Part shown: piece by piece, positions 14,293-27,994 of the stretch
Layout: every line of letters starts with the position of its first letter
How positions within the stretch are numbered: the first letter of the stretch is position 1
Virus record (IMG/VR): IMGVR_UViG_3300037408_000112
Location: 1 to 40,874 of that record
Strand: one strand, 5' to 3'
DNA: 40,874 bases
Origin: a virus
Taxonomy: Duplodnaviria > Caudoviricetes
The notes under the pieces: generated by a model
Told to the model about the DNA's origin: nothing
Databases searched by the model: none
The model's input: only the letters and a program-made list of their open reading frames with translations
Made by a program: the position numbers and the translations under genes

Positions 14293-15014
14293 CAGATTGC
14301 CCCCTCCCAGGGATACGGCTCTCTCGGCTTCGGCTCATCCTCCCAACGCCGGCCGTTCAGGTACGTGGCCGGATTCGGGTCGTACTGGCTGTCTGCCGCC
14401 CAGACGCGCGAGATGCAGTCCTCGTAGGCCGACTCGCGCTGCTTGTCAGTCAGCCGGTTCCACGCCTTGACCGCCGCCTGCTTGGCCACCTTCTTCGGGT
14501 ACATCGCCCACCACTGCTCGAAGGTCCTGACCTCGCCGCGCCAGACGGTGGTCTTGTCAGGCGACGGCTTGTTCTCTTTGTTGTTCTTCTTGTTGTTCTT
14601 ATTAGTTCGGACGAGGGTGTCCTCACCAGTCAGGACGAGGGTGTCCTCACCAGTCAGGACGACGGTGTCCGAACTTGTCTGGACAGATCCGGCCTCTTCG
14701 AGGGCTTCTGCGACCCGTGACCAGGCCACCGTCCAGTGGTTTTTGCCGGGTATCCCGATCCGCTTGACGGTGATGAATCCGTCGGCCAGAAGTCGCGCCC
14801 TTGCCACCCGGTATTCGCGCTCCGTCAGCCCGGTGTCGGCGAGCAGCTGGGTCATCGTCCGGTAGAACGTGTCGCCGTGCAGGGCGGCAAGGTTGAGCAT
14901 CTGCCCCAGCAGAACGCCGCAGGCGACGCCGCCGGCCGCCTTCGCCAGCGCCGGGTTGTAGGCGATGTAGGGAAGGTGGGCGCCACGCAGCATGGCGATG
15001 TAGTCTCGCTTCAT
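14292..15014 (-). CDS. Replication initiator (lambda O-like)
   Basis: N-terminal wHTH-like region, central repeats, C-terminal FEQWWAMYPKKVAK...PATYLNGRRWEDE. Start re-called to MKRDY. Confidence 0.8.
   Translation of the reverse strand: MKRDYIAMLRGAHLPYIAYNPALAKAAGGVACGVLLGQMLNLAALHGDTFYRTMTQLLADTGLTEREYRVARARLLADGFITVKRIGIPGKNHWTVAWSRVAEALEEAGSVQTSSDTVVLTGEDTLVLTGEDTLVRTNKNNKKNNKENKPSPDKTTVWRGEVRTFEQWWAMYPKKVAKQAAVKAWNRLTDKQRESAYEDCISRVWAADSQYDPNPATYLNGRRWEDEPKPREPYPWEGAI
14568..14684. repeat. Probable replication origin: three 24-bp iterons plus a purine/pyrimidine-biased AT-rich tract
   Basis: GGACGAGGGTGTCCTCACCAGTCA at 14609 and 14633, a degenerate copy at 14657, and a T/C-rich tract at 14568-14607, all inside the initiator gene. 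Confidence 0.7.
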
Positions 15015-17198: not shown

Positions 17199-17226
17199 GG
17201 GCTTGGCCTCTTGGATACTGGCGCGC

Positions 17227-17255
17227 AGCCTACTCCCATGCCCGGCGCATGTCCA
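17227..17255 (-). promoter_or_regulatory. Leftward sigma70-type promoter with a palindromic operator candidate
   Basis: TGGACA-N17-TAGGCT on the - strand, with the CATGC-N5-GCATG inverted repeat (17237-17251) overlapping the -35 and spacer. Confidence 0.6.
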
Positions 17256-17293
17256 GAATACTTAACTTCGAGAACGAGATTCGCAAATAGTTG

Positions 17294-17325
17294 TTGACCC
17301 GGAGTTTGGAACGTGATGGAATACT
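17294..17325 (+). promoter_or_regulatory. Rightward early promoter P1
   Basis: AT-rich upstream tract, TTGACC, then TGGAAT at 17-nt spacing. Aligns with P2 (TTGAC-N21-AATAC in both). Confidence 0.6.
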
Positions 17326-17341
17326 CCCCACAGCAGCAGTA

Positions 17342-17406
17342 CGTCGCCCCACGGAGAACGGGGACCTGGCCTCCGAATCGCGCGAGACCGACCAGGTAAA
17401 GGAGCC
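17342..17406 (+). ncRNA. Conserved two-hairpin leader RNA, copy 1
   Basis: CCCC-ACGGAGAAC-GGGG hairpin, then ACCUGG/CCAGGU stem with an inner CUC/GAG stem. Near-identical copy at 20335. Confidence 0.7.
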
Positions 17407-17408
17407 AC

Positions 17409-17462
17409 CCAAGTACAGCGGTATGCGACCGCTGCTGATGAGGCCAGCAAGCCGAAACTTGG
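17409..17462 (+). ncRNA. Type III hammerhead ribozyme, copy 1
   Basis: CCAAG-UA^-CAGCGGU-AUGCG-ACCGCUG-CUGAUGA-GGC-CAGCAA-GCC-GAAA-CUUGG. Full catalytic core, GUA triplet, predicted cut after 17415. Confidence 0.92.
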
Positions 17463-17471
17463 AGACCGACC

Positions 17472-17705
17472 ATGGCACTGAAGATCAGCAAGCACGCCGG
17501 CCAGCGGATGCGCGAGCGAAAGATCAGCCTGCGCCTGATCGCCCTGGCCATCGAGAAGGGCGAGAAGCAGGTCGAGAGCAGCGACGGCGAGGTGATTCGC
17601 TACCGGCTGCCGATGTCGATCGACGGCCTCGAAGTCGTCGCCCATCTGAACGTCATCATCGACTGCGACGTCGTCGTCACGGTCTACGTGAGGGGATGCC
17701 TGTGA
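17472..17705 (+). CDS. DUF4258-like (RelE/BrnT-type fold) protein
   Basis: ISKHAGQRMRERKIS...I..G...VVVTVY pattern. Confidence 0.7.
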   Translation: MALKISKHAGQRMRERKISLRLIALAIEKGEKQVESSDGEVIRYRLPMSIDGLEVVAHLNVIIDCDVVVTVYVRGCL

Positions 17706-17905
17706 ACGACCTGAACAAGCTCTACTGGATCAACAACGACAACTGGGTGCCGGCCTGTGGCGGCACCGAGCTGCCGTTCGAGACGCGCAACGGCCGGCGG
17801 GTCCAGTACATGTGGAACCGCAACAGCCGCGAGCACGCCTACTACGACCTCGACCGGGACATCTTCCTGGACGACGCCGAACTGAAAGAAGCCTTCGGAT
17901 TCTGA
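17696..17905 (+). CDS. Small early protein (WVPACGGTE type)
   Basis: WVPACGGTELPFETRNGRR...HAYYDL. The real start lies inside ORF 17291..17905. Confidence 0.7.
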   Translation: MPVNDLNKLYWINNDNWVPACGGTELPFETRNGRRVQYMWNRNSREHAYYDLDRDIFLDDAELKEAFGF

Positions 17906-17915
17906 GGAGACCGCC

Positions 17916-18101
17916 ATGAACCGCGAGCCGATCGAGCAGAACGTGAGCAACAAGCCGAAGTCAACGGAAGGCGTCGTTGGCGACGTCGTCCACGTCGTCG
18001 CTGACGACGGCAACTACTACGGCAGCTACCGCAAGACGCTGGTCGGCCTCGACCGGCAGGAGCTGTGGATGCCGTGCGACCAGTTCGGGAACATCTTCTA
18101 G
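17916..18101 (+). CDS. Small early protein
   Basis: Preceded by GGAGACCGCC-ATG. Confidence 0.7.
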   Translation: MNREPIEQNVSNKPKSTEGVVGDVVHVVADDGNYYGSYRKTLVGLDRQELWMPCDQFGNIF

Positions 18102-18110
18102 GAGACCGCC

Positions 18111-18350
18111 ATGATCGAGCGCCCCGCACCTGACTTTTCGGTTGACGACTACGGCCCGATGGCCGGCATCTCGCCGCTCAACGCCGACGCCCTCCGCTGG
18201 CTGAACCGCTTCCAGGCCAAGGCCTGGGGGCGGCGCACTCACGAGCTGGGCCCGCAGCTGATCTTCCACGTCAACGACAGCGAACAGTCTGACGTGTTCC
18301 ACGACATCCTGGCCGCCGCCAAGGCGCGCGGCTTCAACATCGCCTTCTGA
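18111..18350 (+). CDS. Small early protein
   Basis: Preceded by GGAGACCGCC-ATG. Confidence 0.75.
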   Translation: MIERPAPDFSVDDYGPMAGISPLNADALRWLNRFQAKAWGRRTHELGPQLIFHVNDSEQSDVFHDILAAAKARGFNIAF

Positions 18351-18360
18351 GGAGACCGCC

Positions 18361-18738
18361 ATGTCACTGCCTGACCTGAACGCCATGTCCCACGCCGAGC
18401 TGCAGCAGTACGCGATCGACGCGATCGAGCAGGGCATCAACGCCTGGCGCGTCATGCGCGCCGGCTTCGAGCCCGACGCCGTCGTCTTCATCGACGACTA
18501 CAACCGCGCGCTGCACCGCCGCAATTTCGGCAAGGCCGTCGAGCTGCTCACGCCCAACTCGGGCGAGCGCGTCTGCATCTACGGTCCCGACGCGCTGCGC
18601 GACGTCGTCCAGTTCGACGGCGACAAGGGCCGCTGCGTGCTGCACCCGAAGCGCCTCATCGACTTCATCGACGAGGAGATAGCCGGCGCCCAGGCGTCGC
18701 TGCGCTACCTGCGCAACCATGTGGAGGCCGCAGCATGA
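18361..18738 (+). CDS. Early protein
   Basis: Preceded by GGAGACCGCC-ATG. Confidence 0.75.
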   Translation: MSLPDLNAMSHAELQQYAIDAIEQGINAWRVMRAGFEPDAVVFIDDYNRALHRRNFGKAVELLTPNSGERVCIYGPDALRDVVQFDGDKGRCVLHPKRLIDFIDEEIAGAQASLRYLRNHVEAAA

Positions 18739-18947
18739 AGACCGCGAGTGCTGTGAAGGCCTGGCGGCGCCGCGAGGCGATGCGGCCCGAGCCGGTGACC
18801 AAGCGCGCCGTCGTCGGTGGCCCCTGGGAGGGGCTCACCGTCGTCGTGCGCACCAACATGGAGAGGTCCCTGGACCTCGTCATCAACGGCCGTCGCGGGC
18901 GCTTCGAGCGCCTGGGCGGCAGCCTGAAGTGGGTGGAGGCAGCATGA
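18735..18947 (+). CDS. Small early protein
   Basis: GGAGG SD and ATGA overlap. Confidence 0.7.
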   Translation: MKTASAVKAWRRREAMRPEPVTKRAVVGGPWEGLTVVVRTNMERSLDLVINGRRGRFERLGGSLKWVEAA

Positions 18948-19132
18948 CTGACCAAGAGTACGCAGAGATGCTGGCCGAAGAGCGCCGCATGTGGGGCGTT
19001 GAGAGCCGCTGGCAGGCGCAAGGCGAGGCGCTGCAGGTCCTCGCCGGTCTGGCCTACCTGGAAGACGATGAAGACGTTGGAGACGCCCTGCGCGAGCGCG
19101 CAGAGGACCTTCTTTCCCTTGTTCGAGACTGA
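18944..19132 (+). CDS. Small acidic early protein (62 aa)
   Basis: MTDQEYAEMLAEE..., GGAGG SD and ATGA overlap. Confidence 0.7.
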   Translation: MTDQEYAEMLAEERRMWGVESRWQAQGEALQVLAGLAYLEDDEDVGDALRERAEDLLSLVRD

Positions 19133-19144
19133 GGAGACCATGCC

Positions 19145-19444
19145 ATGGCAAAGCTGACCATCATCGCCATCGCGGCCCTCGCCGCCTCCGGCTGCGTCAC
19201 GCAGCATGAGGTGCGCGAGTCGGCCTACGCCGACTGCCTGAGTAAGGGCGGAAGCCGGGATACCTGCATCGCCGTGAGCTATCAGCACGGCGCCAGCTGG
19301 CAGGCGCAACAAGACGCCGCGATGGCGAGCTTCAACGCCTCGCTGCAGGCGGCGTCGTTCGCCATGCAGCCCAACTACTACCAGCCAGCCGTGCGCCTGC
19401 AGACCAGCTGCATGCGCGTCGGCACCATGCTCACTTGCAACTGA
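19145..19444 (+). CDS. Lipoprotein
   Basis: Signal peptide MAKLTIIAIAALAASG-C with lipobox, C-terminal TSCMRVGTMLTCN. Confidence 0.75.
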   Translation: MAKLTIIAIAALAASGCVTQHEVRESAYADCLSKGGSRDTCIAVSYQHGASWQAQQDAAMASFNASLQAASFAMQPNYYQPAVRLQTSCMRVGTMLTCN

Positions 19445-19455
19445 GGAGAACTGAC

Positions 19456-20214
19456 ATGCCTGGACTGATGCTTCACTGTGGTGCCAACTCGATCGACCGC
19501 AACGCGCTCGCCGCGCTGCCGCTGCCGCCCGCGATGGGGCCGCGTCACGTCGTTCGCCCCTACATCGACGACCTGGAGATCGTCGAGCACGCCCTCGCCG
19601 ACTACGGCCTGGCCGTCAACGACGAGGCCTTCGGCATCACCAAGGACGGTGGCCGCTTCTTCGGCGTGCTGGAGTGCGCGCCGATCGAGGGCGAGTACAT
19701 CGGCAAGGACTACGGCCTGATGGTCGGCCTGCGCGGGTCCTACGACCAGTCGATCGCGCGTGGCCTGGCGATCGGGTCGAGGGTGTTCGTGTGCGATAAC
19801 TTGGCCTTCAGCGGCGAGGTGAACATCCTCACGCGGCAGACGACCAACATCGCCAGCCGCATCCCGCAGCTGCTGCGCAGCGCCGTGGCCCAGCTGCCGC
19901 AGCTCGCCGAGCACCAGCAGGCGCGCTTCGAGGCGTACCGGAACACGGCGCTCACGCCGCGCCAGGGCGACGCCATGCTGGTCGAGCTGATGCGGAAAGA
20001 GGTGCTGACCTCGAACAGCATCAAGCGCGCTGTGGCCGAGTGGGACGAGCCGTCGCACCCGGAGCACGCCGAGCAGGGCCGCTCGATCTGGCGCATGCAC
20101 AACGCCGTGACTGAGGCGCTGAAACCGGCGGACGCCGCCCGCTTCGCTATCCCGGCGCTGTGGGAGCGCACGACGAAGATGACCAAGTTCTTCGACGAGG
20201 TCGTCGGGCTCTGA
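19456..20214 (+). CDS. DUF932 family protein
   Basis: LMLHCG, GLRGSYDQS, GSRVFVCDNLAF and SIWRMHNAVTE motifs. Start re-called to ATG 19456 after GAGGAG. Confidence 0.8.
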   Translation: MPGLMLHCGANSIDRNALAALPLPPAMGPRHVVRPYIDDLEIVEHALADYGLAVNDEAFGITKDGGRFFGVLECAPIEGEYIGKDYGLMVGLRGSYDQSIARGLAIGSRVFVCDNLAFSGEVNILTRQTTNIASRIPQLLRSAVAQLPQLAEHQQARFEAYRNTALTPRQGDAMLVELMRKEVLTSNSIKRAVAEWDEPSHPEHAEQGRSIWRMHNAVTEALKPADAARFAIPALWERTTKMTKFFDEVVGL

Positions 20215-20223
20215 CGGGCCGAC

Positions 20224-20243
20224 CGGGGGCTTCGGCCCCCGGC
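20224..20243 (+). terminator. GC hairpin ending early unit 1
   Basis: CCGGGGGC-TTCG-GCCCCCGG with no clear U-tract. The same core recurs at ~26897. Confidence 0.5.
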
Positions 20244-20283
20244 CAGCTCGGGAAGATAATTCGTGAATTGTGTTTGAAAGGTG

Positions 20284-20315
20284 TTGACGGCCGGAACGGA
20301 TTCAGGCCTAATACA
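20284..20315 (+). promoter_or_regulatory. Rightward early promoter P2
   Basis: AT-rich upstream tract, TTGACG, then CCTAAT at 17-nt spacing. Aligned with P1. Confidence 0.6.
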
Positions 20316-20334
20316 CCCAACAGCCAAGCAGCAC

Positions 20335-20396
20335 CGTCGCCCCACGGAGAACGGGGACCCGGCCTCCTGAGATGAGACCGACCGGGTAACGGAACC
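20335..20396 (+). ncRNA. Conserved two-hairpin leader RNA, copy 2
   Basis: Same first hairpin as copy 1. The ACCCGG/CCGGGU stem covaries with copy 1 (U-A to C-G), and the distal loop differs. Confidence 0.7.
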
Positions 20397-20400
20397 ACCC

Positions 20401-20455
20401 CCAGTCAGGGCGTATGCGACGCCCTCTGACGATGGCCCAGCAAGGCCGAAACTGG
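20401..20455 (+). ncRNA. Type III hammerhead ribozyme, copy 2
   Basis: CCAG-UC^-AGGGCGU-AUGCG-ACGCCCU-CUGACGA-U-GGCC-CAGCAA-GGCC-GAAA-CUGG. GUC triplet, predicted cut after 20406. Confidence 0.92.
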
Positions 20456-20463
20456 AGACCGCG

Positions 20464-20751
20464 ATGTTCAGCCCCTACTACGGTTGCGACGAGTACGAAG
20501 GCGACTACCTGGCCCGCGAGATGCAGGAGGAGTTCTTCGCCCAGGCCGACTACCTGAGCGAGGCCTACGGCGCCACGGCCCGCGACGCCGCCGACTTCGC
20601 CGACGAGGACTACGACGCGATGGTCGAGGAGGCCTGCGAGCTGGCCGCCTCCCTTGGCGTCCTCGACGGCCACGTCCAGGCCAAGCGGATCCACGACTCG
20701 GCGGTGCGCATCGCCGCCGGCAACGCTGCCTTCGATGACATCCCCTTCTGA
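20464..20751 (+). CDS. Highly acidic early protein with an SSB-type C-terminal DDIPF
   Basis: 22 D/E versus 5 K/R in 95 aa, ending AFDDIPF. Confidence 0.8.
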   Translation: MFSPYYGCDEYEGDYLAREMQEEFFAQADYLSEAYGATARDAADFADEDYDAMVEEACELAASLGVLDGHVQAKRIHDSAVRIAAGNAAFDDIPF

Positions 20752-25384: not shown

Positions 25385-25563
25385 GGTTGACCCGTGCCGC
25401 GAGGGTCCCCGCGAGGGGAGTGCGCGGCTCAGGCGTAAGCCGGGAGTGGCCTGACGTTCACAACCAACTCCGGCAGCCGGTACGGGGCTTTCCCTCGCGC
25501 AGACAACCTCAGCGCGGCGGTCTCCACCCCGGGACCCGGCCGACTGGCCCACGTCACGGGCCA
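25385..25563 (+). ncRNA. Candidate structured RNA or DNA element
   Basis: Multiple long complementarities and two GNRA hairpins in an intergenic gap of ~200 nt. Confidence 0.4.
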
Positions 25564-26896: not shown

Positions 26897-26916
26897 GCGG
26901 GGGCTTCGGCCCCCGC
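26897..26916 (+). terminator. Intercistronic hairpin (partial terminator or stabiliser)
   Basis: GCGGGGGC-TTCG-GCCCCCGC with no U-tract. Confidence 0.5.
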
Positions 26917-27967: not shown

Positions 27968-27994
27968 GGGCGCCTTCGGGCGCCCTTCTTTTTT
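27968..27994 (+). terminator. Rho-independent terminator
   Basis: GGGCGCC-TTCG-GGCGCCC followed by TTCTTTTTT. Confidence 0.8.

What the first reader, a model, noticed from the sequence alone, without database searches (positions are those of the whole stretch)
17342..20396. Unrecognised ~65-nt structured RNA between promoter and hammerhead, likely released as an immediate-early small RNA
Seen: both cassettes share CGUCGCCCCACGGAGAACGGGG, then ACCYGG-C-CUC-(variable loop)-GAG-ACCGA-CCRGGU, then AAMGGARCCACC. The outer stem shows a compensatory U-A/C-G change, and the only length variation within the motif is in the distal loop. The loop GGAG could also pair with the conserved CUCC as a pseudoknot. 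Each copy has two ANGGA motifs (one in a hairpin loop, one unpaired) and contains GAGACCGACC, the same word that precedes early-gene start codons. The predicted transcription start to ribozyme cut gives an RNA of ~85-90 nt. I could not match it to a family I know. Inference, competing models: (a) a CsrA/RsmA-type sponge or a decoy for a factor binding the early RBS motif; (b) an HK022 put-like RNA antiterminator, since it has two adjacent stems just after a phage promoter and I see no N-like gene; (c) an anti-defence RNA such as an antitoxin mimic. The promoter-RNA-ribozyme-RBS cassette is the best candidate here for an undescribed system.
Basis: partly seen in the sequence, partly recalled or inferred. 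Interest (0 to 1): 0.9.

Follow-up and report, generated by a model that had tools for sequence, protein, structure and literature searches.

The report
Ribozyme-released phage leader RNA motif
An uncultured phage carries two copies of a short non-coding motif, matching no Rfam family, between a promoter-like site and a complete hammerhead ribozyme motif, so it likely makes a free, folded RNA of about 87 bases early in infection that would bind a host protein, which is untested.

Summary
The motif is real: two copies (cores 17347-17397 and 20340-20387), each between a weak sigma70-like site and a complete type III hammerhead. No Rfam match.

I found one diverged homologue, in the same slot of a related phage (L158). 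A model built from the window copies alone scores it 31 bits, E about 1e-5. Its outer stem stays fully paired through changes at 4 of 6 pairs, and the loop words CGGWGAAC, GCCUC and GAGACCGAC are kept.

That homologue has no GGA at all. This argues strongly against the CsrA sponge and the GGAG/CUCC pseudoknot, and weakens the RBS-decoy idea.

Best reading (0.42): a hammerhead-released RNA of about 87 nt that binds a host protein through its invariant loops. Main rival (0.25): a put-like antiterminator, which cleavage does not exclude.

The promoter-RNA-hammerhead-RBS layout is not unique. Other phages fill the slot with unrelated RNAs, clustered phage hammerheads are known since 2011, and this scan noted the layout before on other DNA. 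Only three distinct sequences support the fold, and there are no expression data.

The parts
17294..17322 (+). Promoter-like site 1 (-35 TTGACC, 17 nt, -10 TGGAAT with TG upstream); start inferred near 17330
   Evidence: Read from sequence; not found by the strict scan; TTGAC and AAT kept in copy 2 and L158
17330..17415 (+). Predicted released RNA 1, 86 nt (inferred start to hammerhead cut)
   Evidence: inference, no expression data
17347..17363 (+). Motif copy 1, hairpin 1: CCC/GGG stem with loop word CGGWGAAC
17364..17397 (+). Motif copy 1, hairpin 2: 6-bp covarying outer stem, 1x5 internal loop (C / ACCGA), CUC/GAG stem, variable distal loop
17410..17462 (+). Type III hammerhead 1, cut after 17415; the 3' strand of stem III covers the first GG of the Shine-Dalgarno GGAG
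   Evidence: (RF00008, 32.8 bits, E 2e-4)
17472..17705 (+). First gene behind cassette 1: DUF4258 protein with a predicted BrnT/RelE-like RNase fold; a homologue also follows the motif in L158
   Evidence: Pfam 29.6 bits, over cut-off 25; 36% to the L158 protein; pLDDT 88; BrnT Z 7.1, rmsd 3.0, 69 aligned
20222..20243 (+). GC hairpin without U tail after the DUF932-like gene, ahead of promoter 2; the same 18-mer recurs at 26898
20284..20312 (+). Promoter-like site 2 (-35 TTGACG, 17 nt, -10 CCTAAT; CAAGAT in a relative); start inferred near 20319
   Evidence: not found by the strict scan
20319..20406 (+). Predicted released RNA 2, 88 nt
   Evidence: inference
20340..20387 (+). Motif copy 2 core (hairpin 1 at 20340-20356, hairpin 2 at 20357-20387)
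20401..20455 (+). Type III hammerhead 2, cut after 20406; stem III also covers the first GG of the RBS of the gene at 20464
   Evidence: (RF00008, 40.7 bits, E 1.1e-6)
27968..27994 (+). The only clear intrinsic terminator on the + strand, at the end of the early region

Best explanation
The motif is likely the folded core of a small RNA of about 87 bases that host RNA polymerase would make first from each of two early promoters, that the hammerhead would cut free from the message, and that likely acts on its own by binding a host protein through its invariant loops, as a decoy or inhibitor during host takeover. Shown: the two cassettes, intact hammerhead cores, a third copy in the same slot of a diverged phage, covariation of the outer stem, and invariant loop words. 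Inferred: transcription from these promoters; cleavage (by analogy to tested phage hammerheads); a 2',3'-cyclic-phosphate end on the small RNA and a 5'-OH, structured leader on the mRNA (established hammerhead chemistry); freeing of the first RBS from stem III after the cut; and protein binding in trans. The target is not identified, and it is probably not CsrA/RsmA.
For: (1) L158 was found by terminase synteny, not by the motif. It has the same order: promoter-like site, motif, type III hammerhead (39 bits), RBS, DUF4258-like gene. A model built from the two window copies alone scores it 31.2 bits, E 1.1e-5, next best 11.7 in 95.5 kb. (2) Outer stem: 6 of 6 pairs kept in 3 of 3 sequences, 3 pairs with double changes and one G-C to G-U (14 of 500 shuffles reach 3 double changes; random letters would pair all 5 variable positions 1.1% of the time). 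(3) Stem letters change while loop and bulge letters do not (31 of 55 columns invariant), as expected of a protein-recognition surface. (4) One relative's contig differs at 8 of 87 positions upstream of copy 2 and at 0 of 65 in the motif (p 0.011, a single contig). (5) A type III hammerhead leaves only its stem-III 5' strand and cleavage triplet on the upstream RNA. (6) The slot takes interchangeable cargo: among 59 distinct type III hammerheads from 110 viral loci, 51 have an RBS and start within 41 nt, 13 have a promoter-like site within 170 nt upstream, 17 abut a GC hairpin instead, and 0 have both. The upstream RNAs belong to other families, and model R1 matches none of them. (7) Phage hammerheads cleave in vitro and in E. 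coli (PMC3088659 section 6). In LUZ24-infected cells a mapped RNA 3' end (T004, position 2480; PMC10914365 supplement) falls on the cut site of a type I hammerhead that I read from the genome.
Against: Only 3 distinct sequences, two of them paralogues, so the covariation is thin; permuting the 5 variable 3' letters keeps full pairing in 24 of 120 orders. Hairpin 1, the inner stem and any pseudoknot show no covariation. The RNAs fold no better than shuffles (z -1.0 to +1.0), and the L158 copy does not take this fold in its predicted minimum-energy structure. No expression evidence: the one metatranscriptome laid gave no contig. No target is known. One copy at the head of each promoter fits a cis-acting element equally well.
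Confidence: 0.42

Rival explanations
1. A put-like antiterminator: the nascent two-stem RNA would bind the host polymerase that made it, stay bound after the hammerhead cuts the tether, and carry it through pauses and terminators in the early region.
For: One copy just behind each early promoter, two abutting stems, about 70 nt from the start, as described for putL. PMC9378689 states that put activity does not depend on the tether (it cites Sloan 2007, which I did not read). No antiterminator family among 84 ORF translations in PHROGs, 28 in Pfam or 27 in NCBIfam. Two U-less GC hairpins lie inside the early region.
Against: No sequence likeness to HK022 putL (shuffle p 0.78, 0.86, 0.11), and model R1 finds nothing in the HK022 region. 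The only clear + strand terminator ends the early region. Both copies sit in one operon, and the long leftward unit has none. The early genes show no C>G skew. Most early ORFs match no family, so the absence of an N-like gene is not shown. I recall an in vitro study (Sen et al. 2001, not seen here) in which cutting the tether released putL.
Confidence: 0.25
2. A cis leader that serves the ribozyme and the first RBS: it insulates or times hammerhead folding, possibly as a ligand-controlled switch, and the released piece is a by-product.
For: Stem III covers the first GG of the RBS in all three cassettes. The 5' leader can pair with the hammerhead in copy 1 (-19.6 kcal/mol) and copy 2 (-13.5). 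Invariant loop letters also fit a small-molecule pocket.
Against: Leader-hammerhead pairing is weak in L158 (-6.1), and a relative has C>A at 17345 inside it. The 12-13-nt linker is variable (5 of 12 identical to L158). RBS overlap is seen in only 10 of 59 other type III hammerheads.
Confidence: 0.15
3. An RNA antitoxin or partner for the phage's own DUF4258 RNase-fold protein, in a type III toxin-antitoxin-like layout matured by a ribozyme.
For: The motif is followed by a DUF4258-type gene in both the window and L158. The model matches BrnT/RelE-type ribonucleases in most of the top 25 rows (best Z 7.1).
Against: Copy 2 precedes an unrelated acidic protein. There is no repeat array or internal terminator as in type III loci (recalled). 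Z under 8 shows a fold, not an activity, and Foldseek has no hit at E<=0.001. The linkage rests on two lineages and may be plain synteny.
Confidence: 0.08
4. A CsrA/RsmA sponge, or a decoy for a factor that reads the GAGACCG RBS word.
For: Two ANGGA per window copy, one in a hairpin loop; seven early RBSs share GGAGACCG[A/C]C.
Against: The L158 RNA has 0 GGA yet keeps the fold. Its 4 visible RBSs do not use GAGACCG, although its motif does. One relative-level change falls just behind the second ANGGA. No antisense target of 11 nt or more is shared by the two copies.
Confidence: 0.04
5. A DNA-level element (operator or hairpin) or a left-over of a promoter-cassette duplication with no RNA function.
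For: Copies 1 and 2 share 41 of 48 core positions, as a duplication or conversion would give; folding energies are unremarkable.
Against: The promoter spacer between the same copies is only 5 of 20 identical. The L158 copy keeps the stem with a G-U pair and sits on the transcribed strand ahead of a ribozyme.
Confidence: 0.06

Closest known systems
Clustered hammerhead ribozymes of phages and prophages (Rfam RF00008; Perreault et al. 2011, PMC3088659, passages and section 6 read)
   Same: Complete hammerhead cores directly ahead of early genes, proposed to cut long phage transcripts into pieces; activity shown for other examples.
   Different: The parts I read treat the cut products as mRNAs; here the 5' product is a conserved non-coding RNA of its own.
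HK022 put RNAs (putL, putR; PMC9378689, Introduction and passages read)
   Same: About 70 nt, two adjacent stem-loops, one copy behind each early promoter, no dedicated protein factor recognised.
   Different: No sequence similarity; both copies lie in one operon; each is followed by a ribozyme; no terminator read-through or polymerase binding shown.
RNA anti-CRISPRs (Racrs; PMC10651486, passages read)
   Same: Small phage RNAs, often just behind a promoter, acting as protein decoys.
   Different: Racrs are solitary CRISPR repeat mimics. No Rfam CRISPR repeat matches this motif, and a faint repeat-like look of the window's hairpin 1 (recalled consensus) is not kept in L158.
CsrB/RsmY/RsmZ sponges (recalled)
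   Same: ANGGA in a hairpin loop and in a single-stranded stretch of the window copies.
   Different: GGA is absent from the homologue; only two sites per copy.
PeSL promoter-early stem-loop cassettes of T4-type phages (PMC2839356, abstract and section 14 read)
   Same: Repeated cassette of host-type promoter, stem-loop and RBS among orphan early genes.
   Different: PeSL hairpins overlap or flank the promoter and act as terminators; here a two-stem RNA lies in the transcript and is followed by a ribozyme.

Membership tests
Type III hammerhead (RF00008), downstream element | CUGANGA and GAAA core, NUH triplet, stems I-III with stem III open | tested here: met
   both copies complete; scores 32.8 and 40.7 bits, under the gathering score 48.5
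Type III hammerhead (RF00008), downstream element | Self-cleavage | not testable with these tools
   Needs in vitro transcription; analogy only
Any Rfam 15 family, for the motif | Match at gathering score or E<=10 | tested here: not met
   none on the motif. (L178): only chance-level hits nearby (E 6.6 and 9.1)
CsrA/RsmA sponge RNAs | Conserved multiple ANGGA motifs in loops | tested here: not met
   2 per window copy, 0 in the L158 homologue
HK022 put RNAs | Two adjacent stem-loops, about 70 nt, behind an early promoter | tested here: met
   promoter inferred
HK022 put RNAs | Sequence similarity to putL | tested here: not met
HK022 put RNAs | No phage antiterminator protein | tested here: inconclusive
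   No such family, but most early ORFs match nothing
HK022 put RNAs | Terminators ahead of early genes that must be read through | tested here: inconclusive
   One canonical terminator at the end of the region, two U-less hairpins inside; Rho sites not testable
HK022 put RNAs | Binds the beta-prime zinc-binding domain and suppresses termination | not testable with these tools
   Needs a transcription assay
Racr RNA anti-CRISPRs | Similarity to a CRISPR repeat | tested here: not met
   No CRISPR repeat family hit in Rfam at E<=10; no host array was available to compare
Type III toxin-antitoxin RNA antitoxins | Tandem pseudoknot repeats and a terminator ahead of a ToxN/CptN/TenpN toxin (recalled) | tested here: not met
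   Single unit, no terminator; the downstream gene is DUF4258, with no PADLOC hit
   Both sides change in L158 without compensation
Pseudoknot within the motif | Loop CGG pairs with bulge CCG | tested here: inconclusive
   3 invariant pairs, a fourth in L158 only, no covariation

The most novel reading that the evidence does not exclude
A new class of phage anti-host RNA matured by its own ribozyme: the hammerhead releases a compact RNA with a nuclease-resistant end in the first seconds of infection, and this RNA either neutralises a ribonuclease (a host abortive-infection toxin or the phage's own BrnT-like DUF4258 protein) or rides on host RNA polymerase as an untethered antiterminator. The promoter-hammerhead slot would then be a general phage expression cassette for interchangeable RNA effectors.
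Probability: 0.2. Interest if true: 0.85.

Novelty: new variant of a known kind. Interest (0 to 1): 0.5.

Why it matters
The purpose of the many self-cleaving ribozymes near phage genes is an open question (PMC6765202, passage read). This cassette gives a small, cloneable test case with a natural variant that separates stem from loop requirements. If the 5' product acts on its own, the ribozymes are maturation devices for RNA effectors and not only mRNA punctuation, and other RNAs in the same slot become candidates for RNA-based host takeover or anti-defence. As it stands the family is tiny (three distinct sequences), its function is untested, and the layout has been noted on other genomes in this scan.

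Tried and rejected
Homologue searches that gave nothing new:
- Exact 21-mer in viral contigs: 0.
- 3' word pattern: 4 hits, none with the upstream stem or a hammerhead.
- Metagenome pattern: 120 loci, from 20 of 64 parts of the collection. None of the printed rows had the flanking stem, and a few rows were cut from the output. The pattern was too strict to find an L158-like copy.
- Three-way consensus pattern: 1 of 24 viral loci (L158 itself) and 0 of 94 genome loci with a hammerhead.
- AGACCGA plus hammerhead pattern: 1 of 67, again L158.
- BLAST against phages and plasmids: chance pieces or nothing.
- Model R1 over 100, 21 and 92 sources and 5 whole records: only the training copies. The 19-24-bit hits were nearly all pre-selected by the pattern, and the three shown break hairpin 1.
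- Primase bait: one distant locus without the motif. L157, a close relative, does not cover the region.

Reads: metatranscriptome X23 laid no contig, which proves nothing. Run X4 holds further partial matches (a 38-nt piece with 4 differences, and hammerheads with other upstream sequence) that I could not read in full.

Ideas dropped: CsrA sponge, GGAG/CUCC pseudoknot, CRISPR-repeat mimic, antisense action on the phage's own mRNAs, small ORF (no start codon in RNA 1). Resemblances to the hairpin ribozyme, T-box loops, sarcin-ricin loop and group II intron domain V were recalled, checked by eye against the three sequences, and not conserved.

DUF4258: no PDB sequence match, no Foldseek hit at E<=0.001.

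Literature: ten searches showed no description of this motif. Seven supplementary files of the viral structured-RNA catalogue PMC10690425 lack the motif words, but its two largest files could not be searched and may hold it.
Full report
Setting. The window is a 40.9-kb phage record with direct terminal repeats. Its capsid protein is 30-40% identical to those of Manatee Spring caudoviruses, phiM5 and LUZ24-like phages, and its terminase 42-44% to pelagiphage HTVC010P-like and P26218 terminases. No RNA polymerase or integrase family appeared among 84 ORF translations scanned against PHROGs. Replication, packaging and structural genes run leftwards from 17198. A block of mostly orphan small genes runs rightwards from 17472 to a canonical terminator at 27968-27994. 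The two cassettes head this block and its second half.

Observation. Each copy lies behind a TTGAC-17-xxxAAT site that the strict promoter scan does not call, and ahead of a complete type III hammerhead whose stem III overlaps the first two G of the next RBS. Inferred start to cut gives 86 and 88 nt. Rfam 15 has no match to the motif at gathering score or at E<=10. The exact 10-letter word precedes one start codon, the looser word seven.

A third copy. A terminase search gave 9 viral loci. One of them, L158 (88% terminase identity; 65-76% DNA identity in the early and replication genes that align), covers the first cassette. It shows the same order: promoter-like site, motif, type III hammerhead (39 bits), RBS, DUF4258-like gene (36% identical). 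A covariance model built from the window copies only scores this copy 31.2 bits, E 1.1e-5, against 11.7 for the next hit in 95.5 kb (E-values are rough).

Fold. The three align without gaps outside the distal loop. The consensus is two abutting hairpins: CCC/GGG around CGGWGAAC, then a 6-bp stem, a 1x5 internal loop (C opposite ACCGA), CUC/GAG and a free loop. The 6-bp stem is fully paired in all three, with three double changes and one G-U; 14 of 500 shuffles reach three double changes, and slid controls give at most one. The rest is invariant and says nothing about pairing. Against the fold: z-scores are -1 to +1, and the L158 copy prefers another fold when folded alone. The structure may need tertiary contacts or a protein, or may be partly wrong.

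What the homologue removes. Its RNA has no GGA, so a CsrA/RsmA sponge cannot be the conserved function. The GGAG/CUCC pseudoknot is lost; a CGG/CCG pairing between loop 1 and the bulge is possible but has no covariation. L158 keeps GAGACCGAC in the motif while its four visible RBSs do not use that word, which weakens the RBS-decoy idea.

Near relatives. Public assemblies hold close relatives. Over copy 1, runs X4, X7 and X9 show 1, 0 and 1 listed changes in 17342-17409, while 17200-17260 diverges strongly; the first ORF is about as conserved as the motif, so this is not specific. Over copy 2, one X4 contig has 8 of 87 changes upstream and 0 of 65 in the motif; X5, X12 and X16 show no substitution in it. 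The one RNA run laid gave nothing.

The slot is common, the cargo varies. A scan for hammerheads with a stem II like the window's gave 110 viral loci and 59 distinct type III ribozymes: 51 lead into an RBS, 13 have a promoter-like site within 170 nt, 17 abut a GC hairpin, none both. The pattern is biased to this subfamily and the promoter test is loose, with no null computed. The short upstream RNAs fall into other families, such as the L362 group and L006/L030, and none matches model R1. Pseudomonas phage NV1 has about 430 non-coding bases in the slot. Earlier notes of this scan report the same layout on other genomes; their sequences were not shown, and look-ups by sequence found no look-alike.

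Mechanism. Hammerhead chemistry (established knowledge) gives the upstream RNA a cyclic-phosphate end and the mRNA a 5'-OH; both would resist common decay routes (inference), and loss of the 5' piece would open the RBS. Clustered phage hammerheads were shown to cleave (PMC3088659), and in LUZ24 a mapped 3' end at 2480 coincides with a type I hammerhead cut site. Variable stems with invariant loops point to recognition by a protein. I favour a released decoy or inhibitor acting in trans (0.42), because the slot accepts unrelated RNAs and the ribozyme defines a clean end.

Rivals. The put-like reading (0.25) fits one copy per promoter and is not excluded by cleavage (PMC9378689), but it lacks sequence support and obvious terminators. 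A cis role in ribozyme timing (0.15) rests on leader-hammerhead pairing that is strong only in the window copies. The gene behind cassette 1 has a predicted BrnT/RelE-like fold, which leaves a small chance (0.08) that the RNA is its antidote.

Known versus new. The ribozymes are ordinary members of a known class, and their place ahead of phage genes is known. The RNA family is not in Rfam 15 and was not found in ten literature searches or in seven readable supplement files of PMC10690425; two large files there were not readable. Papers seen: PMC3088659 (passages, section 6), PMC9378689 (passages, Introduction), PMC6765202, PMC5737381 and PMC10651486 (passages), PMC10914365 and its preprint (passages, supplement rows), PMC2839356 (abstract, section 14), PMC10690425 (listing, supplement search).

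Verdict. A real new small RNA motif in a recurring ribozyme cassette; function unproven; support thin in number. Interest 0.5.

Noticed in passing
window 25391-25478 (+): Rfam Proteo-phage-1 RNA (RF03044, 49.3 bits, over gathering) in the intergenic stretch after the SSB-like gene.
   Followed up: no
window 17472-17705 (+); L178 1618-1872: The first early gene is DUF4258 with a predicted BrnT/RelE-like RNase fold; possibly a host shut-off nuclease.
   Followed up: partly
window 20464-20751 (+): The first gene behind cassette 2 is a very acidic 95-aa orphan, a possible DNA mimic by analogy with T7 Ocr (recalled).
   Followed up: no
window 20222-20243 and 26897-26916: The same 18-nt GC hairpin without a U tail follows two early genes.
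   Followed up: partly
L362, L370, L375, L388, L408, L422, L454, about 75 nt upstream of the hammerhead cut: Another uncatalogued RNA family in the promoter-hammerhead slot; a hairpin loop ACYGG matches a downstream CCRG with a compensatory change, suggesting an H-type pseudoknot. No Rfam hit at gathering for L362.
   Followed up: partly
L006 and L030, upstream of position 488: Promoter, a 60-80-nt two-hairpin RNA ending in GAGACCCC, type III hammerhead, RBS: a further family in the slot.
   Followed up: partly
L466 (LUZ24) 2411-2485: A type I hammerhead whose cut site equals the transcript end T004 listed, without a predicted type, in the supplement of PMC10914365.
   Followed up: yes
L373/L377, upstream of the hammerhead: A leader with a GGCGGUGCAA loop and a hammerhead much like that of L158; models R1 and R2 do not match it, so any kinship is unproven.
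   Followed up: partly
window 17906, 18101, 18351, 20752, 20956, 21136: Early genes share a near-identical stop-RBS-start junction (GGAGACCGCC-ATG), not used by the L158 genes seen.
   Followed up: partly
window 18735-18947 (+): A 70-aa orphan with an N-terminal WRRRE stretch reminiscent of N-type arginine-rich motifs (recalled); not at this position in L158.
   Followed up: no
window 14594-14665: Three 24-nt tandem repeats inside the replication initiation gene, iteron-like.
   Followed up: no
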